From an uncultured Syntrophomonadaceae bacterium (GTDB taxonomy: Bacteria > Bacillota > Dethiobacteria > DTU022), in the NCBI GenBank assembly GCA_964390725.1, contig CAYMIW010000013.1, positions 9,086 to 73,085 of the forward strand: a stretch of 64,000 nt of DNA. Direction: 5' to 3'. Shown here in pieces: positions 1 to 60,916 of the stretch; positions within the stretch are counted from its first letter, which is position 1; the number at the start of each line of letters is the position of its first letter. Both the position numbers and the translations under genes were made by a program. The notes beneath the pieces were generated by a model, which saw nothing but the letters and a program-made list of their open reading frames with translations, was not told the origin of the DNA and did not search any database.

Positions 1-1139
1 GAACCATAGAATTCAATCATTATTTCGTTACATTCTTTATCAACATCCAAGTCCTTAAAATAGTCAGGATACATTATTTTAGCCATGTAAAGAGTTGACG
101 TAACTCCGGTGGTTGTATCATACCCACTCGCTGTTACTTTAACAGGATGCACATCTTCATTTTCTACCGCTGTAACTTCCCGTAGAATTGGGTCTCGAAG
201 AATGCTTCTTTTTGTATAATGCCCCGCGGCTTCATATTCATCGTCACCAGCATCGCCTTTGTATTCATTCATACTATTCAAAAAAATCACATCTGGATTC
301 CAAACGGCAATCTGCTCCAAGGAAATCTCATATGCATCAAAAGGTCCATAATCCATATTGTCAGCAACATTAATACCACCAGCTAAATTTATAGGTCCAT
401 AATTAACAAGCGTTCTTGAATTGCCTACCTGTGCAAAAACCCACAGAAAAGCTGTCTTCCTTTCCTCTTCGGGAATATTTTCGACAACGTCAGTCACCAT
501 CTGAATTTTTGACTCAGAATATTCAATCAATCTTTCAGCTCGCTCTTCTTTACCGACAATCTGTCCAACAATTCTTAGTATCTGGTAGTCCATTGCGCCT
601 AAATCTCCTATACATACTACCGGAATACTAGTTTGCTCTTGAATCGTGTCTGCCATGTCCGGAATCATCCATGATGCAAAAATCACATCCGGTTCATAAG
701 CCATGATTACTTGTACATTAGGCTCAGAACCTGTACCTGCATCAGGAATGTCATCAAGTAAATTTGGAAAAATCACTGACTCTGATACAAAAAAAGATGA
801 TTCTCCGCTTAGCATAGTTTTTATATTACCAGGTGCGGCCACCAATTTGTCTGTTGCACCCAACTGATACAATACTCTAATAGCTTCAAGCCCCGAAATA
901 TCGACTACTCTTTCAACATTTTTCTTAACTTCGACTTCTCTTCCGACTATGTCCGTTATTGTAATATAGTCTGCTTCATCGTCTTCCCCGGCGTTGCCAT
1001 CATCGGTAACTGTTACATCCTCGCTTACCGCATCGGAAGACTCATCAGACGGCCCTGCATTCTGAGCACATCCGAACACGCCTACGCAAAGTGACACGAA
1101 CAATAAAATAACTATGGTGTTTTTTAGAAATTTGTTCAT
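1..1139 (-). CDS. Partial (N-terminal about 380 aa) periplasmic-binding lipoprotein of the iron-siderophore/cobalamin (BtuF/FecB, TroA-like) ABC family. The C-terminus runs off the window start.
   Basis: Reverse-strand translation from the ATG at about 1139 gives MNKFLKNTIVILLFVSLCVGVFGCAQN..., a lipobox signal peptide. A long ORF of binding-protein character follows, resembling the 6497..7606 protein. An AGGAGG sits 6 nt upstream. The six-frame track omits it because no stop lies in the window. Confidence 0.65.
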   Translation of the reverse strand, partial: MNKFLKNTIVILLFVSLCVGVFGCAQNAGPSDESSDAVSEDVTVTDDGNAGEDDEADYITITDIVGREVEVKKNVERVVDISGLEAIRVLYQLGATDKLVAAPGNIKTMLSGESSFFVSESVIFPNLLDDIPDAGTGSEPNVQVIMAYEPDVIFASWMIPDMADTIQEQTSIPVVCIGDLGAMDYQILRIVGQIVGKEERAERLIEYSESKIQMVTDVVENIPEEERKTAFLWVFAQVGNSRTLVNYGPINLAGGINVADNMDYGPFDAYEISLEQIAVWNPDVIFLNSMNEYKGDAGDDEYEAAGHYTKRSILRDPILREVTAVENEDVHPVKVTASGYDTTTGVTSTLYMAKIMYPDYFKDLDVDKECNEIMIEFYG

Positions 1140-1279: not shown

Positions 1280-1430
1280 GAATTATTTGCGGCAGGTCTC
1301 CTGGCTTCGTTTCATCTTGATATTGCGCCTTCCCATTTTATCAACAGTGGCATTAGCAATTCAATCAACTACACAGTGGCGGGACCGCAACGGAATTTAA
1401 CCGTTTTCCCTATTAAGCACAATTAAGTAC
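1280..1430 (-). ncRNA. Cobalamin (AdoCbl) riboswitch upstream of the minus-strand binding-protein gene.
   Basis: The reverse complement reads ...AGGGAAAACGGTTAAATTCCGTTGCGGTCCCGCCACTGTG...GCCACTG...GGGAAGGCG...AGGAGACCTGCC. This is the B12-box core and the GCCACTG / GGGAAGGC 3-prime elements typical of the cobalamin riboswitch class. Confidence 0.7.
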
Positions 1431-1589
1431 ACCGCAATAATTATACTATTCAGTTTTCAACTCTTAACGCTCGTCAATAAAAAAAAACAGTTTTTTTACA
1501 TGGTTTTACAATAACTTTACTAAAATTTAAATAACCAGATTCAAAATAGCATAGCATTTTTGATTTGTCAATATACGTGTACCGAGACA

Positions 1590-1616
1590 TGTGTTTGCTC
1601 AGTGATATTGTCACCC
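1590..1616. repeat. Left copy of a perfect 27-bp inverted repeat (TGTGTTTGCTCAGTGATATTGTCACCC). A degenerate second copy (GCTCAGGGATAATGTCAC) lies at 1624-1641.
   Basis: The string is identical to the reverse complement of 5693-5719. It lies about 63 bp upstream of the transposase-like ORF start at 1679. Confidence 0.8.
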
Positions 1617-1678
1617 TAAGAATGCTCAGGGATAATGTCACTATGAGAGAGGAAAACTATCACTTGACCCAAAAATAG

Positions 1679-2040
1679 ATGATTAAGTTACAGGTAGTTG
1701 AAAAAGCATTAGAGGGTATGCTGACAGTTAAGGAAGCAGCGGCAGCGTTAGGGCTAAGCGAGAGGCAGGTGAAACGGCTAAAGGAAGGAGTAGCGGCTGA
1801 AGGACCTTCATTTATCATTCATAAAAACAGGAGTCGTACACCAACCAATGCAATTGCAGTTGAGACGAAGAAGGCAATAATCGATTTAAAGGAGTGGAGT
1901 TGCCCCGGTTTAATGAGCGTTTTGCGGTGGAACCGGTTTGTCCTGATTCTGTTTTTGCTGCTTTGGATCAAAGAATTAATCTTGATCACATTCTCTGCGT
2001 CAAAGAAGAGCGTAAGCTTGACGGTAATCATACTTTCTCT
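1679..2040 (+). mobile_element. Remnant of an IS transposase (HTH N-terminus, ISNCY/IS1202-like or IS481-like). It is frameshifted and truncated, so it is a pseudogene.
   Basis: MIKLQVVEKALEGMLTVKEAAAALGLSERQVKRLKEG...IIHKNRSRTPTNAIAVETKKAIIDLKE is a typical transposase HTH N-terminus. After about 75 aa the reading frame degenerates. A short transposase-like continuation (LPRFNERFAVEPVCPDSVFAAL) sits in the +1 frame, and no DDE domain follows. Confidence 0.5.
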
Positions 2041-2412
2041 TTATAAAGGGCGTTCTTACCAGATAAACTACCAGGGCTCCTCGGCACCGCCCAGGGCTAA
2101 TATTACTGTCCTCTACAGCCCTAAGTTCGGGGTGATGGCTGCTTACCAAGGCCAGGTTTATCCAACGCTGTCTGTGTTAACTCCTATCGTGAAACAAACT
2201 ATATCTAAAAATATTTCTCCTAAGATAACAGTAGAGACTAAACCGAATGATTCTCATCCATGGAAAGACTTTAATCGTGTTATCTTTATGAACAGTCTGA
2301 TCGTGAAATCTTAGAGGCTCTCTATAATTCAACTCTTGCATGGCGCTAACGTTCACCACTTAAAGGGGGGTGACATTTTCCCTGAGCATTGACAATTAAA
2401 TATTTTAGGGTC

Positions 2413-2447
2413 TTGACTGAATTATTGCTGATTATATATAATATAAT
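2413..2447 (+). promoter_or_regulatory. Sigma-A-type promoter for the Mn riboswitch and mntP.
   Basis: TTGACT, then an 18-nt spacer, then TATAAT (cttgactgaattattgctgattatatataat). It lies just upstream of the riboswitch. Confidence 0.4.
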
Positions 2448-2449
2448 AA

Positions 2450-2608
2450 TTCATGGGGGAGTAGTTGGCGTAATTTGCGCTGCAAGTCAACATACCGACT
2501 GAAACGGTCTGGCTTGCATTAAATAACGAGACTCATGTACGGCGTATGCTGTACCTGAGTCTTCCATAAAGACTTACAATTAGGTGCCATACGGCACCTA
2601 ATTTATTT
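2450..2608 (+). ncRNA. yybP-ykoY (Mn2+) riboswitch with a terminator-type expression platform.
   Basis: It carries the GGGGGAGTAG and GTCAACATAC motifs that I recall as the yybP-ykoY signature. A terminator hairpin (AGGTGCCATACGGCACCT plus a T-tract) at 2582-2606 sits immediately before the mntP RBS. Confidence 0.7.
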
Positions 2609-2620
2609 GAGGAGGAATTT

Positions 2621-3181
2621 ATGGGATTATTAGAGCTGTTTTTTGTAGCAATTGGTCTGTCAATGGATGCCTTCGCTGTAGCTATATGCAAAGGACTGAA
2701 CATGAGTAGGCAAAACTGGTTGCATAAATTTATCGTTGCCCTGTTTTTTGGTGTGTTTCAGGCTGTGATGCCTTTAATCGGATGGTTGCTGGGGAAACAG
2801 TTTGAGTCGTATATCAGCCGTTTTGATCACTGGATCGCTTTTGGACTGCTGATATTAATCGGCAGTAAGATGATCTTTGAAGTATTCAAAAAAGATGACT
2901 GTACTAGCGAGAGCAAAAACGATTTGAAAATAAAAGAGCTGACTCTGCTAGCTGTGGCAACCAGCATTGACGCTCTTGCAGTAGGTGTTTCTTTTGCCTT
3001 TTTAAGAGTTGCAATCGTTCCCGCAGTTTCACTGATTGGAGTAATTACATTTGTGCTCTCATTAATCGCCGTTAGTGCAGGGAATCGGCTTGGTGAAAAG
3101 TTTAAAGATAAGGCCGAGCTTGCAGGCGGGACAGTACTAATTCTTATTGGTACAAAAATTCTTCTCGATCATCTGCTCTAA
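2621..3181 (+). CDS. mntP: Manganese efflux pump MntP.
   Basis: The 186-aa product MGLLELFFVAIGLSMDAFAVAICKGL... shows the two-repeat MntP/YebN architecture (SxDAxAV motifs in both halves). A Mn riboswitch sits upstream. Confidence 0.85.
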   Translation: MGLLELFFVAIGLSMDAFAVAICKGLNMSRQNWLHKFIVALFFGVFQAVMPLIGWLLGKQFESYISRFDHWIAFGLLILIGSKMIFEVFKKDDCTSESKNDLKIKELTLLAVATSIDALAVGVSFAFLRVAIVPAVSLIGVITFVLSLIAVSAGNRLGEKFKDKAELAGGTVLILIGTKILLDHLL

Positions 3182-3457
3182 TATATCGATTAAATACAAT
3201 GCCTAATTGCCACTACAAGACTCTAACATAACAGCAGTTGGAGGGTAATTCACTTATTTAGAGAATTATGATGGTAAAGTGAAAGTCATATCTTAAGCGT
3301 TCTTACTTTAAGGGAATTCAGGCCATCTCTCTTTTTTGAGCATGAAAAGAGAGGCAGATTTCTATGTGTTATAGTTCTTGCCATAATATGAGCCTTAGGC
3401 AGTTTTACCCCTTAGCAAAATGAGAACCGCAAAGAATATGCCTAGTGAGGAGGGAAT

Positions 3458-3676
3458 ATGGTAAAGCGTTCATTGAAAGCTGCGATTGGTGTCAGCGTAG
3501 GTATCACAATAGGTGGAATTATTATTCCAAGAGTATTTATGTTTCCCCATCTGTATAATGATACATATCCGCCAATATTAGTTCATAGTATAATGTACTT
3601 TGTTGTTTCATATGTTGCTTGTTTTCTGTTTTTTTTGCTCTTTGAGTGGATCAAATTTAAGCTTAAACGCAACTGA
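3458..3676 (+). CDS. Small hypothetical membrane protein (72 aa, two predicted TM segments).
   Basis: An ORF with a hydrophobic profile and a GGAGGG RBS. No homology was recognised. Confidence 0.3.
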   Translation: MVKRSLKAAIGVSVGITIGGIIIPRVFMFPHLYNDTYPPILVHSIMYFVVSYVACFLFFLLFEWIKFKLKRN

Positions 3677-3774
3677 CTAATCTCTGTATTAGATAAGTTA
3701 TTCGCAGTAAATCTTAATAGCTTCAAGCAAAAATTCAGTGCATCCCTCAGCGATGGCATCGTAGTACATCAGGT

Positions 3775-3987
3775 GAGGTAAAGCAGCTTTCTTACACATA
3801 CTCTAAAGGTACGTCACCTGCAGTTAAGGATTTAAGTTTTTCTGTAAAACATGGTGAGGTTTTTGGTTTTCTTGGGTCCAGCGGGTCGGGAAAATCCACC
3901 ACGCAAAAAATCCTGATTGGGCTACATAGCAAAGATGCTACCTTAGAAGATGTCTTTATTAAGGTGACAGGGAGGAATCTGGCTTGA
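3775..3987 (+). pseudogene. ABC-transporter ATPase remnant. The Walker-A N-terminus is fused to the extreme C-terminus by an internal deletion.
   Basis: The in-frame translation reads ...YSKGTSPAVKDLSFSVKHGEVFGFLGSSGSGKSTTQKILIGL, then HSKDATLEDVFIKVTGRNLA and a stop. The Walker A box and C-terminal tail are present. The ABC signature and Walker B are missing. Confidence 0.5.
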
Positions 3988-4538
3988 AACAGCTTCTCTC
4001 TACTATATACTGTGACTTTTTAATCCAGCTCAGAAACGGGTTTTATACCGCAACTTTTTTTGTGTTATTATTTGTTGTGCTTGGTTTAAGCCGTTTGCCC
4101 AGGGTTGATTGGGGATGGCTTTTACCGCTGGTAATCCTTTTATATATGAACATGACAGCCTACTACTTTATTGCAGCACAGGTTCTGCTGGAAAAAGACG
4201 AAGGTGTTTCAGTAATACGTGCAGTTATGCCCTTTTCTCCCCTGCATTATCTCTGCTCTAAAATAGTAACACTTGGTTTTTTGGCAGTTGTAGAGAGCAC
4301 TGTGCTGGCAATTGCGGTTTACGGTTTTGACTATAATTGGCTCCCTTTTATCAGCGGCATTTTGCTAGCTTCTGCTTTTTATGCGCTTGTGGGGTTTATC
4401 AGTGTCACTCGTTATAATTCTTTGGAAGAATACCTGCTGCCTTCTGTGCTGTACGGTGCCCTTGCTTCTTTGCCACTAATTACAGGCTTAGCACAAATAA
4501 ATTCCATGATCTGTTTTTCTGCATCAGACATGCGTTGA
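3984..4538 (+). CDS. ABC-2 type permease-like membrane protein, probably a truncated partner of the degraded ATPase.
   Basis: 184 aa with several TM helices. It overlaps the ATPase remnant stop in the ATGA fashion typical of ABC-2 exporter pairs. Confidence 0.4.
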   Translation: MKQLLSTIYCDFLIQLRNGFYTATFFVLLFVVLGLSRLPRVDWGWLLPLVILLYMNMTAYYFIAAQVLLEKDEGVSVIRAVMPFSPLHYLCSKIVTLGFLAVVESTVLAIAVYGFDYNWLPFISGILLASAFYALVGFISVTRYNSLEEYLLPSVLYGALASLPLITGLAQINSMICFSASDMR

Positions 4539-4763
4539 AACTTTACCATTAATGCATTTTCACCCCTATTATTTATAGAATTAATAATAGTATCAGTAAT
4601 TTATTTGCTGTTATAAAAAAGCAATAATTTTAATTCTACTCTTTGTAGTTATGTTATAATTTTACATGTTTTTTTGATGAATGAGTCAATATCCATATTT
4701 AAGCAAGCACTATATTAATACTACTAAGTATTGGTGGCTGTAATTCAAACTGCCTCCAACACA

Positions 4764-5468
4764 CTATTCATCAAACTGAACAGTGAAATATCTCCTGGTA
4801 TTCTCTTCATGAAATTCAATTTTAACATTTCTGGTTACGCCTTTTACATAATTATCACTAACTATTAAGCCATTATCAAGAACTTGAATTTTATCTGAGT
4901 CCAGCTGAGGATAATAATCACTCAATCCTTTGTAGAATGCTAAAAAATCATCTCTGTTATAATCGGTAGCGTATTTTAAGTCAGACTGAAGGGTATCTTG
5001 ATAATAAGTAATCAGTCTATCATCTTTTACTAAATGAAACGGAATAATAAACTCAGTATCTAAATATTGAACCAAAGGACTGAAGAAGACATACGCATTC
5101 GGATATCCCTCAGACGTATTACGACTTGTAGTTACGGTTAAGACGACAACAGCATTTTCCCCGCCTGCATTTTCAATTTCAATTAATAACTTGCCCTTTT
5201 GGAACTCTGTTACAGTATAGTTAACTTCTTCAGAGGACAACTTGCGAACTTTTTCAGCCATTTCCGCAATAGAATATTTGCAGACAATTTTTGTTGATAG
5301 TGTCCCGTCCCTACTTCCATATTTAAATTCAAGGGGTATTTCTATTAGCTTATTTGAGAAAAAATCTTCTGTCCTTAATACGTCAATTTTCTTCCACCCT
5401 CCTGCTGCACAAGCAGTAAATAGCAGTATTGACATTATTAAAAAACATATCAGCAGCTTTATTCTCAC
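4764..5468 (-). CDS. Hypothetical lipoprotein.
   Basis: With a GTG start, the product is MRIKLLICFLIMSILLFTACAAGG..., a lipobox signal followed by about 210 aa of soluble domain. No family was recognised. Confidence 0.5.
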   Translation of the reverse strand: MRIKLLICFLIMSILLFTACAAGGWKKIDVLRTEDFFSNKLIEIPLEFKYGSRDGTLSTKIVCKYSIAEMAEKVRKLSSEEVNYTVTEFQKGKLLIEIENAGGENAVVVLTVTTSRNTSEGYPNAYVFFSPLVQYLDTEFIIPFHLVKDDRLITYYQDTLQSDLKYATDYNRDDFLAFYKGLSDYYPQLDSDKIQVLDNGLIVSDNYVKGVTRNVKIEFHEENTRRYFTVQFDE

Positions 5469-5692
5469 AAAATCACACATCCTTAGTTATTGTTAAAGAA
5501 ACTGGGCAGAATATGCAGCATTTATGCCCAGCTCTTCAATCCATCATGGACGAAAGAAAGTATAGCCTGTCATGACCCCACTATAGACAACGTGAGCTTG
5601 ATTGCTCCATCCATAGTGACAAATTATTTCTGTATTGTTACTGTTAACACCATAACCGACAACAGCGTGCCAGCCTGGATTATTACCGTGTA

Positions 5693-5719
5693 CGGGTGAC
5701 AATATCACTGAGCAAACAC
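5693..5719. repeat. Right copy of the 27-bp perfect inverted repeat (reverse complement of 1590-1616).
   Basis: GGGTGACAATATCACTGAGCAAACACA is the exact reverse complement of TGTGTTTGCTCAGTGATATTGTCACCC. Confidence 0.8.
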
Positions 5720-5789
5720 AAACAAGCCAACCTACTATTGACATATTTTTATGCATCATGCTATATTTGAGAAAATCATATATAGTGAA

Positions 5790-5945
5790 CGTAAGGTGCC
5801 CATGTATTGGGTGAAAAGGGAAGTCCGGTGAAAATCCGGCGTGGACCCACCACTGTAATAGGATACAAATCCCCAAGGTGCCACTGGAATTTATTTCTGG
5901 GAAGGCGGGGAGGAGGATAAGCCTAAAACCAGGAGACCTGCCTTA
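5790..5945 (+). ncRNA. Cobalamin riboswitch.
   Basis: GGTGCC...AAAAGGGAAGTCCGGTGAAAATCCGGCGTGGACCCACCACTGTAA...GCCACTGG...GGGAAGGCGGGG...AGGAGACCTGCC shows the B12 box and the conserved 3-prime elements. It lies upstream of the corrinoid-type ABC importer. Confidence 0.75.
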
Positions 5946-6064
5946 ATGTTGTAATGATAGATGAGGGGTTATCAGATATCATTGTGAAGTGGCTTAAGAT
6001 GGGAAAGTCTCTTAGTAAAATACTAAGAGACTTTTTTAGTTACTGCTAAAAGGAAAAAGTAAAT

Positions 6065-6252
6065 ATGCGGAAGAGGTATGCCATGAAGAGAATCGCATTT
6101 TATGGAAAAGGTGGAATTGGAAAGTCTACAGTAGTTTCTAATATGGCAATAGCTTTAGCATAATCTGGGCAAAAAGTAATGTTACTTGGATATGATCCAA
6201 AATCTGACTCTATTATAAACATTATAAATGCAAAAGAATCCCGACAGTTTTA
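6065..6252 (+). pseudogene. NifH/BchL-family (nitrogenase Fe-protein-like ATPase) N-terminal fragment, interrupted by an in-frame stop and truncated.
   Basis: MRKRYAMKRIAFYGKGGIGKSTVVSNMAIALA, then a TAA at 6161, then SGQKVMLLGYDPKSDS... This reproduces the NifH P-loop and switch-I N-terminus. Only about 60 codons are present. Confidence 0.55.
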
Positions 6253-6496
6253 GAACAAATGAAAAAGAATATTGAGGGTTTTTGTAATGAAATGCAAAAA
6301 GATAGTTCTGCCATTTTAATTCCGCTCTTTGGGGATAAACTGTCTGGTGATTTCCAATATGGAATACAACGCGCACAGAATTGTGTTGCTCAATATAAAA
6401 TAATTGACAGAAGGGATATGGAGAAAATAACAATCGATATAAATGATTATGTGCTTCTTTATACCCAGTCAAAATAAAAATCCAGGAGGGAATAAA

Positions 6497-20630: not shown

Positions 20631-20984
20631 TGGTGGAGGCGGCGGGAATCGAACCCGCGTCCGAAGGCCCAGCAACAGAAGCATCTACAAGCTTAGTTCC
20701 GGCTTTGTGTGTCGCGCCTCCGGCTCCCCGGAACAGGATCCTTCAGCGCCAGCTCCGTTAATTTTCCCGCATAAGAGGTGGAGCGACCGCTTAAACAGTA
20801 GGCCGGATTAGTGACACCCCTGATCTTTCCCCCGGCCGGGGAAAGGAGGGATGCGCTACTTTAGATTAAGCAGCGAGTGCGTAATTCGGTTTGGCGTTTA
20901 TAGCCTTTCCATGTTTTTAACCAGGTCATGGTCCTGGACCTGCAGCTTCTGTCTCAAAAACCCCCGTCGAATCCTAACGCCCCC
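20631..20984 (-). ncRNA. ssrA: tmRNA (SsrA).
   Basis: The minus strand begins GGGGGCGTTAGGATTCGACGGGG and ends GCGGGTTCGATTCCCGCCGCCTCCACCA. These are the canonical tmRNA 5-prime end and the tRNA-like 3-prime end. smpB lies immediately upstream. Confidence 0.85.
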
Positions 20985-60772: not shown

Positions 60773-60916
60773 TAAAAAAACCTCTTTCGGTCCAAGAGGC
60801 TCGATGGCACACCTCATCTCCCGGAGTCTTTTGACCCCGCAGCAATTGGCACCGTGGCTACTATGCCCGGTTGCCGGGATTCATCGGGGCTGTCCCTCCT
60901 CCACTCTTGATAAGAG
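60773..60916 (-). ncRNA. SAM-I (S-box) riboswitch with terminator, in the metK leader.
   Basis: The minus strand reads CTCTTATCAAGAGTGGAGGAGGGACAGCCCCGATGAATCCCGGCAACC...CCACGGTGCCAATTGCTGC...GAGATGAGG. It is followed by the hairpin CCTCTTGGACCGAAAGAGG and a T-run. Confidence 0.75.

What the first reader, a model, noticed from the sequence alone, without database searches (positions are those of the whole stretch)
1590..5719. Perfect 27-bp inverted repeats bracket a 4.1-kb cargo segment
TGTGTTTGCTCAGTGATATTGTCACCC at 1590-1616 is repeated exactly as its reverse complement at 5693-5719. A degenerate extra copy sits beside the left end. The left repeat lies about 60 bp upstream of a decayed transposase HTH N-terminus, the usual geometry of an IS end. 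Between the repeats lie the transposase remnant, a Mn riboswitch with mntP, a small membrane-protein ORF, an internally deleted ABC-2 exporter pair and a lipoprotein gene. The whole unit sits between two cobalamin-riboswitch loci. It looks like a non-autonomous or decayed composite transposon, or an invertible segment, that moved a Mn-efflux module into the B12 uptake locus. No target-site duplication is visible.
Basis: seen in the sequence. Interest (0 to 1): 0.6.

Follow-up and report, generated by a model that had tools for sequence, protein, structure and literature searches.

The report
Insertion-sequence debris at two promoters
The two perfect 27-bp inverted repeats are the left ends of two separate, now-defective copies of one insertion sequence, not the ends of a gene-carrying transposon, and each sits 17-18 bases upstream of a promoter, which is where this group of elements appears to insert as a rule.

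Summary
The repeat is real: 1590-1616 (+) and 5694-5720 (-), 27/27, with none expected by chance.

It is the left terminal repeat (IRL) of an IS1202-family element with a 17-bp target duplication, like the ISTde1 subgroup. The left copy belongs to an 805-bp element, 1590-2394. This element has both ends, a nonsense codon, frameshifts and a 625-bp deletion of the catalytic core. The right copy is a 27-bp solo stub fused to the tail of a truncated cysteine-peptidase gene.

Each IRL lies 17-18 nt from the -35 box of an outward-facing promoter, one for each of the two divergent cobalamin-riboswitch operons. In 26 of 30 independent insertions of four related elements, the IRL has this same geometry (background 1.25%). 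The two ends therefore arrived separately.

The 4.1-kb unit has no target duplication. No recombinase gene lies nearby. Eleven contigs from the same population are about 100% identical and collinear with the window.

The composite-transposon and invertible-segment readings are not supported. The 27-mer is identical across elements only 71-88% alike, so its perfection does not indicate a recent event.

The by-product may be new: I found no report that this group inserts just upstream of promoters.

The parts
1543..1571 (-). Promoter P1 of the left cobalamin-riboswitch operon: TTGACA (1571-1566), 17 nt, TATTTT. It points away from the IS.
   Evidence: Promoter scan, 10/12 with an extended TG. 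It lies upstream of riboswitch 1451-1274.
1572..1589 (.). 18-nt segment between the P1 -35 box and the IRL. This is the position that is duplicated on insertion in intact relatives.
   Evidence: Flank table and distance distribution. No second copy of the adjacent 17-mer 1573-1589 (ATACGTGTACCGAGACA) in the window.
1590..2394 (+). IS-A: an 805-bp defective IS1202-family element with both termini (TGT...ACA).
   Evidence: Collinear alignment with intact copies L022 and L024. 625 nt of the DDE core are missing, with the junction near 1895-1906. 87.7% identical to L008 over the first 301 nt.
1590..1616 (+). IRL outer repeat L1. This is the 27-mer of the finding.
   Evidence: An identical 27-mer begins many related elements.
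1621..1641 (+). Subterminal repeat L2, a second presumed transposase-binding site. With L1 it carries a TTGTCA-17-GATAAT promoter-like site (1608-1636) facing the transposase gene.
   Evidence: The IS1202 family is described as having an extra internal Tnp-binding site (PMC10132070).
1643..2314 (+). Transposase pseudogene. ATG at 1643, GAG>TAG nonsense at 1676-1678, HTH region 1679-1897, core deleted, frameshifted C-terminal pieces at 1894-2043 and 2042-2314.
   Evidence: NF033594 positions 1-67 and 274-320; HTH_28/HTH_29; alignment.
2365..2394 (+). IRR of IS-A: GGGGGGTGACATTTTCCCTGAGCATTGACA. It matches IRL at 22 of 27 positions, and its tip is TTGACA. The two right-end repeats seen in L023/L024 are present as a single repeat here.
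2413..2442 (+). Promoter-like site P_mnt: TTGACT-18-TATAAT. Its -35 box lies 18 nt from the IRR of IS-A, an unusual geometry for a right end.
   Evidence: 11/12. Only 1 of 14 independent right-end flanks shows this.
2444..3181 (+). Putative Mn (yybP-ykoY) riboswitch at 2444-2608 and mntP at 2621-3181.
   Evidence: Rfam RF00080, 22.4 bits, below the cut-off of 45. PF02659, 190 bits.
3458..3676 (+). 72-aa membrane-protein ORF with no family hit.
3760..4538 (+). Decayed ABC exporter pair: an ATPase with an internal deletion (about 3760-3987) and a truncated FLQE3/ABC-2 permease (3984-4538).
   Evidence: Translation; PF24686.
4764..5480 (-). Lipoprotein-like ORF, 238 aa as listed here. Population contigs call it at 234 or 223 aa.
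5547..5693 (-). C-terminal fragment of a cysteine-peptidase gene. About 160 N-terminal residues are missing and the fragment is fused directly to the IRL stub.
   Evidence: NF045837 positions 160-204 of 240.
5694..5720 (-). IS-B: a solo 27-nt IRL stub in inverted orientation. Similarity to the IS stops exactly after CACCC.
   Evidence: The same junction occurs in independent population contigs.
5721..5737 (.). 17-nt segment between the IS-B stub and the P2 -35 box.
5738..5767 (+). Promoter P2 of the right cobalamin-riboswitch operon: TTGACA-18-TATATT. It points away from the stub.
   Evidence: 11/12, with an extended TG. Riboswitch at 5777-5959.

Best explanation
The 27-mer pair is debris from two independent insertions of one IS1202-family element. 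This element makes a 17-bp target duplication, as the ISTde1 subgroup does.

Elements of this clade insert with the IRL one duplication length (17, sometimes 18 nt) upstream of the -35 hexamer of a sigma-70-type promoter that points away from the element. The window holds two divergent promoters, one for each cobalamin-riboswitch operon, and each attracted one copy.

- IS-A (1590-2394, rightward orientation) kept both ends. It lost its catalytic core to a 625-bp deletion and carries a nonsense codon and frameshifts.
- IS-B (inverted orientation) was almost wholly removed. The deletion ran from just inside its IRL into a neighbouring cysteine-peptidase gene and left a 27-nt stub at 5694-5720.

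The repeats are perfect because this IRL is nearly invariant across the clade. It is presumably the transposase-binding site. Perfect identity therefore does not indicate a recent event.

Shown: the anatomy, the family assignment, the target geometry, the absence of a duplication, and the invariance of the 27-mer.

Inferred: the order of events, the deletion that made the stub, and that the DNA between the two elements (mntP, ABC remnants, lipoprotein, peptidase tail) is resident, decaying chromosomal DNA rather than cargo.
For: - IS-A is collinear with intact copies from TGTG... to ...TTGACA, apart from a 625-nt internal gap. Its IRR at 2365-2394 matches the IRR of intact elements.
- The transposase pieces hit NF033594. 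Intact relatives pass that model's cut-off (407-447 bits against 250) and are about 32% identical to ISKpn21-family transposases.
- A 17-bp target duplication was found in L024, L049, L055, L056, the L002 mini-element and a Paenibacillus copy.
- Both window IRLs lie 18 and 17 nt from TTGACA boxes of promoters that score 10/12 and 11/12 and lead into the two riboswitches.
- 26 of 30 independent IRL flanks show a full promoter at this distance, against 1.25% of random positions (P about 1e-45). The -10 box is enriched beyond the -35 box (16 of 24 against 4.3%, P = 7e-17).
- The 17-mers flanking the 4.1-kb unit are unrelated.
- The exact 27-mer starts elements whose bodies are only 71-88% identical.
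- Solo IRL stubs of about 27 to 110 nt occur at other promoters in other genomes.
- Eleven contigs from the same population are 99.97-100% identical and collinear with the window.
Against: - IS-A has no target duplication either. Its right flank is not the expected copy of 1573-1589.
- The IRR of IS-A lies 18 nt from a strong outward promoter (P_mnt). Canonical insertions followed by homologous recombination cannot produce this geometry. So at least one further IS-mediated event, such as an adjacent deletion, a reverse-orientation insertion or IS-IS recombination, has reshaped the DNA to the right of IS-A.
- I cannot show that the interior is ancestral here. The closest relatives found are too distant for an empty-site test.
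- The exact stop of the stub at the 27-nt boundary is unexplained. It also occurs in L002.
- Orientation data come from consensus assemblies, not reads.
Confidence: 0.75

Rival explanations
1. Composite or non-autonomous transposon. The two inverted IRLs act as the ends of a 4.1-kb unit that a transposase supplied in trans moved, with mntP, into the B12 locus in one event.
For: Two perfect inverted IRLs bracket the genes. Intact relatives of the element exist in the same metagenome series (L022).
Against: - The unit has no 17-bp duplication, although the clade makes one.
- Both ends carry their own -35 box at the canonical distance. A single insertion would give this only with identical 17-mers on both sides.
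- The right end is only the 27-nt outer repeat and lacks the subterminal site.
- The unit was found only at this locus, in one clonal population.
- The left IRL already pairs with its own IRR.
Confidence: 0.06
2. Invertible segment. The 27-bp repeats are recombination sites for programmed inversion of the 4.1-kb segment.
For: Perfect inverted repeats flank the segment.
Against: - No invertase or recombinase gene is among the called genes within about 9 kb on either side of the pair (L012).
- The segment is far larger than typical promoter invertons.
- All 11 population contigs have the same orientation.
- The repeats are fully explained as IS ends shared with many other loci.
- From general knowledge, 27 bp is a poor substrate for RecA-dependent inversion.
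Confidence: 0.03
3. IS-mediated rearrangement. The two IRLs did insert separately, or IS-B arose from IS-A by intramolecular transposition to P2. The DNA now between them was then brought in or reordered by IS-driven events: an adjacent deletion to the P_mnt target, an inversion, or recombination with IS copies elsewhere. On this reading mntP was not originally between the two B12 operons. It overlaps the best explanation and differs only on where the interior came from.
For: - IS-A lacks its duplication.
- Its IRR sits 18 nt from the P_mnt -35 box, the canonical target distance, which 13 other right-end flanks do not show.
- A second case, the L002 mini-element E1, also sits between two divergent promoters at canonical distances without a duplication.
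- The IS1202 literature attributes missing duplications to recombination between copies (bioRxiv 10.1101/2022.12.17.520857).
Against: - The simple replicative-inversion model predicts the reverse complement of 5721-5737 next to the IRR of IS-A. It is not there.
- No partner junctions are visible in the 64-kb window.
- Base composition of the interior is like that of the flanks.
Confidence: 0.3

Closest known systems
IS1202 family, ISTde1 subgroup (Siguier et al., bioRxiv 10.1101/2022.12.17.520857; Harmer and Hall, PMC10132070)
   Same: Intact relatives are about 1.43-1.47 kb. They have TGT...ACA termini, imperfect terminal repeats of about 27 bp, an extra subterminal repeat, a 443-462 aa HTH+DDE transposase homologous to ISKpn21, and 17-bp target duplications. 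They occur in Firmicutes, and copies without duplications are frequent.
   Different: Those papers report no target specificity for the 15-17-bp subgroup. Here the IRL sits 17-18 nt upstream of promoter -35 boxes. The window copies are defective: one is internally deleted and the other is a 27-nt stub.
ISAba32/ISAjo2 subgroup of the IS1202 family, which targets XerC/XerD (dif, pdif) sites
   Same: Insertion is orientation-specific with the IRL proximal, at a fixed distance from a short protein-binding DNA site. Tandem insertions occur at the same site, as seen here at the smpB promoter in L055.
   Different: That subgroup makes 5-6-bp duplications and targets the XerC arm of dif-like sites. 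Here the duplication is 17 bp and the neighbour is a sigma-70-type promoter.
Composite transposons such as Tn10 and Tn5
   Same: Inverted IS ends bracket unrelated genes.
   Different: The unit has no duplication. One flank is only a 27-nt stub and both outer ends are left ends. Each end has its own target signature, and no second copy of the unit was found.
Solo IS ends and MITE-like internal-deletion derivatives
   Same: IS-A (805 bp) and the L002 mini-elements (93 and 125 bp) keep their ends and lose the core. The 27-nt stub is a solo end.
Promoter-proximal targeting by eukaryotic retrotransposons (Ty1/Ty3 at Pol III genes, Tf1 at Pol II promoters) and Tn7 at attTn7 (general knowledge)
   Same: Insertion occurs at a fixed short distance from a transcription-related landmark and leaves the neighbouring gene intact.
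   Different: The enzyme classes and hosts differ. No tethering factor is known here. This is an analogy in how it works, not family membership.

Membership tests
IS1202 family (ISTde1-like subgroup) | Transposase of about 440-460 aa with an N-terminal HTH and a DDE core, homologous to IS1202-group transposases | tested here: met
   Intact relatives P0001, P0037 and P0012 score 407-447 bits on NF033594 (cut-off 250). P0001 is about 32% identical to ISKpn21-family transposases. The window's remnant matches profile positions 1-67 and 274-320 only.
IS1202 family (ISTde1-like subgroup) | 5'-TGT ... ACA-3' termini with imperfect terminal inverted repeats of about 24-27 bp | tested here: met
   The IRL is TGTGTTTGCTCAG... 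and the IRR is ...CTGAGCATTGACA, matching at 22 of 27 positions.
IS1202 family (ISTde1-like subgroup) | An additional internal transposase-binding repeat next to the terminal repeat | tested here: met
   L2 at 1621-1641. Two right-end repeats in L023 and L024.
IS1202 family (ISTde1-like subgroup) | Target-site duplication of 15-17 bp | tested here: met
   17 bp in L024, L049, L055, L056, the L002 mini-element and the Paenibacillus copy. Neither window copy retains one.
IS1202 family (ISTde1-like subgroup) | [quoted passage not shown] | not tested
The subgroup assignment rests on duplication length only.
Composite transposon | Direct target duplication flanking the whole unit | tested here: not met
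   ATACGTGTACCGAGACA and AACAAGCCAACCTACTA are unrelated.
Composite transposon | Two IS copies, or two complete functional ends, bracketing the cargo | tested here: not met
   The left side is a defective IS with its own right end. The right side is only the 27-nt outer repeat, without the subterminal site.
Composite transposon | The unit is found at more than one locus, or an empty site exists in relatives | tested here: inconclusive
   The unit was seen only at this locus, in one clonal population. The nearest relatives share 53% and 41% identity in the flanking protein and have a different upstream context.
Invertible DNA segment (inverton) | A site-specific recombinase encoded in or beside the segment | tested here: not met
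   No recombinase family is among the called genes within about 9 kb on either side of the pair in L012, or among the interior ORFs.
Invertible DNA segment (inverton) | Both orientations present in sequence data | tested here: inconclusive
   All 11 contigs from at least 9 assemblies show one orientation. Consensus contigs can hide minority orientations, and raw reads were not available.

The most novel reading that the evidence does not exclude
A clade of IS1202-family insertion sequences selects sigma-70-type promoters as its target. The clade is defined by NF033594-type transposases with 42-100% identity and is found in Bacillota. Each element inserts in one orientation, with the IRL exactly one 17-bp duplication upstream of the -35 hexamer. 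The promoter is left intact and can be targeted again; tandem copies at one promoter were observed.

Both -35 and -10 boxes are enriched at the sites, and the right tip of the element is itself TTGACA. So recognition may involve either the hexamer, read by the same transposase surface that reads the right tip, or promoter DNA bound by RNA polymerase holoenzyme.

I found no description of this in the literature I could search.
Probability: 0.6. Interest if true: 0.72.

Novelty: new variant of a known kind. Interest (0 to 1): 0.5.

Why it matters
The repeat pair itself is ordinary. It is decayed insertion-sequence material and should not be read as a Mn-efflux transposon or as a phase-variable switch.

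What matters is the rule that explains it. A widespread group of bacterial insertion sequences seems to home to the upstream edge of promoters with single-turn precision and fixed orientation.

If the rule is mechanistic, three things follow:
- It would be a bacterial DNA-transposon counterpart of promoter-tethered retrotransposons.
- It would add a second, different target to the site-specific repertoire of the IS1202/TnsB-like transposases, after XerCD sites.
- It would offer a natural marker of active promoters in uncultured Bacillota and a possible tool for inserting DNA at promoter-proximal safe sites.

It also explains why these elements and their stubs accumulate in divergent intergenic regions such as this one.

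Tried and rejected
- **Empty-site test.** A metagenome scan with the flanking BtuF-like protein found nothing. A homologue search gave nearest relatives at 53% and 41% identity. Their operon is conserved but their upstream neighbours differ, so no conclusion was possible.
- **Lipoprotein look-up.** An exact look-up of the 238-aa lipoprotein found nothing. The 234-aa form exists only in the same population. Its 56%-identical homologues (L057, L058) have no peptidase neighbour, so they give no synteny information.
- **Replicative intramolecular inversion from IS-A to P2.** This predicts the reverse complement of 5721-5737 after position 2394. It is not there.
- **Divergent target duplication around IS-A.** The two 18-mers match at only 5 of 18 positions by direct comparison of the sequence. 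That is too different given the intact 27-mers.
- **The TGTCAA hexamer as part of the element.** Rejected because the duplications abut TGTG... and ...TTGACA directly, and the sequences between differ at every site.
- **Short IRL stubs as evidence of a special truncation mechanism.** Stub lengths are about 27-110 nt. This more likely reflects assembly bias, because only remnants shorter than a read assemble within long contigs. I left it as a note.
- **Organism name.** The cluster look-up returned no names.
- **Rfam at gathering threshold.** It does not call the Mn riboswitch. It appears only in E-value mode.

Full report
**Observation.**

The 27-mer TGTGTTTGCTCAGTGATATTGTCACCC is at 1590-1616 on the + strand. 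There are no other matches with up to three mismatches in the 64-kb window, and none in 100 shuffles.

A 19-nt core, TGCTCAGNGANANTGTCAC, occurs four times. It lies within both 27-mers, at 1623-1641 (+), and at 2370-2388 (-).

**What the left repeat belongs to.**

The ORF pieces at 1679-1897 and 1894-2043 match NCBIfam NF033594 (ISNCY family transposase) at profile positions 1-67 and 274-320. The first piece also hits HTH_28 and HTH_29.

I fetched intact relatives through the repeat core and through transposase homologues. Alignment with them shows that window 1590-2394 is collinear with a 1.43-1.47-kb element from its first base (TGTG...) to its last (...GAGCATTGACA).
- 625 nt covering the catalytic core are missing.
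- A GAG>TAG change lies at 1676-1678.
- The C-terminal part is frameshifted.

The right terminal repeat (2365-2394) matches the left one at 22 of 27 positions. So the left 27-mer already has its own partner. It bounds an 805-bp defective element, which I call IS-A. The 'degenerate extra copy' (1621-1641) is a subterminal repeat. Intact copies have a matching pair at the right end (L023, L024).

**Family.**

Intact relatives score 407-447 bits on NF033594 against a cut-off of 250. They are about 32% identical to ISKpn21-family transposases on plasmids. ISKpn21 is a member of the IS1202 family (bioRxiv 10.1101/2022.12.17.520857).

The family is described as follows (PMC10132070):
- about 1.5 kb long, with TGT...ACA ends;
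- transposases of 441-457 aa;
- an extra internal transposase-binding site;
- three subgroups with duplications of 5-6, 15-17 and 27-28 bp.

I found 17-bp duplications around L024 (CATATTTTTGAGATTAA), L049, L055, L056, a 125-bp mini-element in L002, and a Paenibacillus copy. The element is therefore ISTde1-like by this criterion. I did not place it on the transposase tree.

**What the right repeat is.**

Similarity between 5720-5694 (read on the - strand) and the element stops exactly after the 27th base. It is identical to the left end, not to the right end, which differs at five positions.

The DNA inside the repeat (5693-5547, - strand) encodes the last 49 or so residues of a cysteine peptidase (NF045837 positions 160-204 of 240). 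This is therefore a solo left-end stub of a second, oppositely oriented copy, which I call IS-B. The simplest origin is a deletion running from just inside the terminal repeat into the neighbouring peptidase gene. That is an inference.

Comparable stubs of about 27 to 110 nt exist in other genomes. One in L002 also stops after 27 nt, where it forms part of a 93-bp mini-element.

**Why the two ends are separate events.**

In every locus recovered with the left-end sequence, the outside flank carries TGTCAA about 17 nt from the element. Read on the other strand, this is TTGACA followed 16-18 nt later by a TATAAT-like hexamer. That is a sigma-70-type promoter pointing away from the element.

I compiled 30 independent left-end flanks from four related elements.
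- 26 have a combined match of at least 9 of 12, with the -35 box 15-18 nt from the end (19 at exactly 17 nt). At random positions in the same DNA the figure is 1.25% (P about 1e-45).
- Given a good -35 box, a good -10 box is present in 16 of 24 sites, against 4.3% of background hexamers (P = 7e-17).
- The promoters lie upstream of genes in the right orientation, for example infC-rpmI-rplT, a cold-shock gene and smpB.
- Of 14 independent right-end flanks, 13 show nothing of the kind.

In the window, an independent promoter scan ranks three sites highest in 1400-6000:
- (-) 1571-1543, TTGACA-17-TATTTT, which leads to the riboswitch at 1451-1274;
- (+) 5738-5767, TTGACA-18-TATATT, which leads to the riboswitch at 5777-5959;
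- (+) 2413-2442, TTGACT-18-TATAAT, upstream of the putative Mn riboswitch.

The first two lie 18 and 17 nt from the two 27-mers. Each left end thus has its own target signature.

A single insertion of a 4.1-kb unit would give one signature and a 17-bp direct repeat. The two flanking 17-mers are unrelated.

**Why the repeats are perfect.**

The same 27-mer starts elements whose bodies are 71-88% identical, and it occurs in at least a dozen unrelated loci. Its identity reflects constraint on the terminal repeat, not a recent event.

**Mobility and inversion.**

The mntP protein and its neighbourhood were found on contigs from at least nine assemblies of what is evidently one population. All 11 contigs are 99.97-100% identical to the window, with the same order and orientation. 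The called genes within about 9 kb on either side of the pair include no recombinase. I found no second copy of the unit anywhere.

The closest relatives of the flanking BtuF-like protein are 53% and 41% identical. They keep the operon but not the upstream context, so an empty-site test was not possible.

**The interior.**

- mntP is intact.
- The Mn riboswitch is plausible but below Rfam's threshold.
- The ABC ATPase has lost its middle and the permease is truncated.
- The peptidase lacks its N-terminal two thirds.
- A NifH-like gene after the right riboswitch is also a pseudogene.
- Composition does not set the interior apart from the flanks.

This looks like a decaying, IS-affected intergenic region rather than a cargo module.

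**What remains unexplained.**

IS-A has no duplication. Its right end lies 18 nt from the -35 box of the mntP promoter, the canonical distance but with the 'wrong' end. The L002 mini-element E1 shows the same arrangement between two divergent promoters.

Canonical insertions followed by homologous recombination always keep the left end next to the promoter, so some other event is needed. It could be a reverse-orientation insertion, a transposase-mediated adjacent deletion to a second promoter target, or an original site with back-to-back promoters followed by recombination. This leaves room, perhaps 30%, for the mntP segment having been brought next to IS-A by IS-driven rearrangement. That would still not be transposition of the 1590-5720 unit.

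**Mechanistic reading of the targeting (inference).**

The right tip of every element examined is TTGACA, and the left tip is not. After insertion, each copy of the 17-bp duplication is bordered by a TTGACA hexamer. One comes from the promoter and the other from the element's right tip. One hypothesis is that the transposase surface that reads the right tip also reads the promoter's -35 box on the left-end side. This would set both distance and orientation.

The strong -10 enrichment argues instead for recognition of whole promoters, possibly bound by RNA polymerase. So does one insertion inside a coding region that still has TTGACC-17-TATAAT. Survival bias against intragenic insertions could also contribute to the -10 enrichment.

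The 17 duplicated bases cover roughly -52 to -36 and show an A-rich tract where an UP element would lie.

In L055, two different elements sit in tandem at the smpB promoter. The newer one lies between the promoter and the older one, with the 17-mer repeated. The target therefore survives insertion and can be reused.

The left end carries TG-n-TATTGT at positions 14-22. Abutted right and left ends would therefore form TTGACA-16 nt-TATTGT, the kind of junction promoter expected for copy-out-paste-in elements. This is an inference (compare).

**Literature.**

The two IS1202-family papers report XerCD-site targeting only for the 5-6-bp subgroup, and no target preference for the 15-17-bp subgroup. 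Further full-text searches found no report of promoter-proximal targeting by these elements. The held library does not include ISfinder or TnPedia, so prior description there cannot be excluded.

**Verdict.**

Its main claim, a composite transposon or an invertible cargo segment, is wrong. The repeat pair itself is of low interest. The rule uncovered while explaining it, insertion of this IS clade 17 nt upstream of promoter -35 boxes, is well supported statistically and appears not to have been described. That accounts for the intermediate overall score.

Noticed in passing
window 1543-1589 and 5721-5767; loci L001-L011, L022-L024, L027-L056, L063: Elements of this IS1202-family clade sit with the IRL 17 (sometimes 15-18) nt upstream of the -35 box of a complete sigma-70-type promoter that points away. 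This holds for 26 of 30 independent sites against 1.25% background, and the -10 box is also enriched. It holds for five elements with 42-100% transposase identity.
   Followed up: yes
window 2394-2442; L002 3461-3553: The right end of IS-A lies 18 nt from a strong outward promoter (TTGACT-18-TATAAT, presumably for mntP). Only 1 of 14 right-end flanks shows this. The 93-bp mini-element E1 in L002 has the same arrangement: both ends at the canonical distance from divergent promoters, with no duplication. Canonical insertion plus recombination does not explain it.
   Followed up: partly
L055 380-2005; L052 114-3002: Two different elements of the clade lie in tandem at the smpB promoter, arranged AGTCAA | 17-mer | IS1 | same 17-mer | C | IS2. 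The promoter target therefore survives insertion and is reused.
   Followed up: partly
L001, L002, L003, L005, L009, L010, L011, L030, L031, L033, L037, L038; window 5694-5720: Solo left-end stubs of about 27 to 110 nt next to promoters outnumber full-length copies in assembled contigs. Assembly bias is a likely contributor, because only remnants shorter than a read assemble in context.
   Followed up: partly
window 1608-1636 and the right tip 2389-2394: A TTGTCA-17-GATAAT promoter-like site spans the two left-end repeats and faces the transposase gene. The right tip is an outward TTGACA. Abutted ends would give TTGACA-16 nt-TATTGT with an extended TG, which would be a junction promoter.
   Followed up: no
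window 6084-6260: The first gene after the right cobalamin riboswitch is a NifH/CfbC-like ATPase pseudogene. It reads MKRIAFYGKGGIGKS..., has an in-frame stop after about 26 codons and then decays. Together with the ABC and peptidase remnants, this suggests the whole neighbourhood is eroding.
   Followed up: no
window 1-1139 and leftwards (L012 1984-8519); L025, L026: The left riboswitch controls a conserved operon: a BtuF-like binding protein, FecCD, an ABC ATPase, two nitrogenase-like Oxidored_nitro proteins and a NifH-like ATPase. The order is kept in relatives that are only 41-53% identical. Its function was not examined.
   Followed up: no
window 2444-2608: The yybP-ykoY (Mn) riboswitch upstream of mntP scores only 22.4 bits against a gathering score of 45, although the GGGGAGUAG and GUCAACAUAC cores are present. 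It may be divergent or damaged.
   Followed up: partly
window 20631-20984 and 60811-60916: A tmRNA gene (186 bits) and a SAM riboswitch (81.5 bits) lie on the - strand elsewhere in the window.
   Followed up: no
L063 (Paenibacillus cellulosilyticus NZ_CP054613.1, 55006-59253): A 42%-identical relative is inserted inside an IS3-type orfB coding region with a 17-bp duplication (GATCCAGATGCTGAGTT). The flank still reads TTGACC-17-TATAAT on the opposite strand. This hints that promoter-like sequence, not intergenic location, is what the element recognises.
   Followed up: partly
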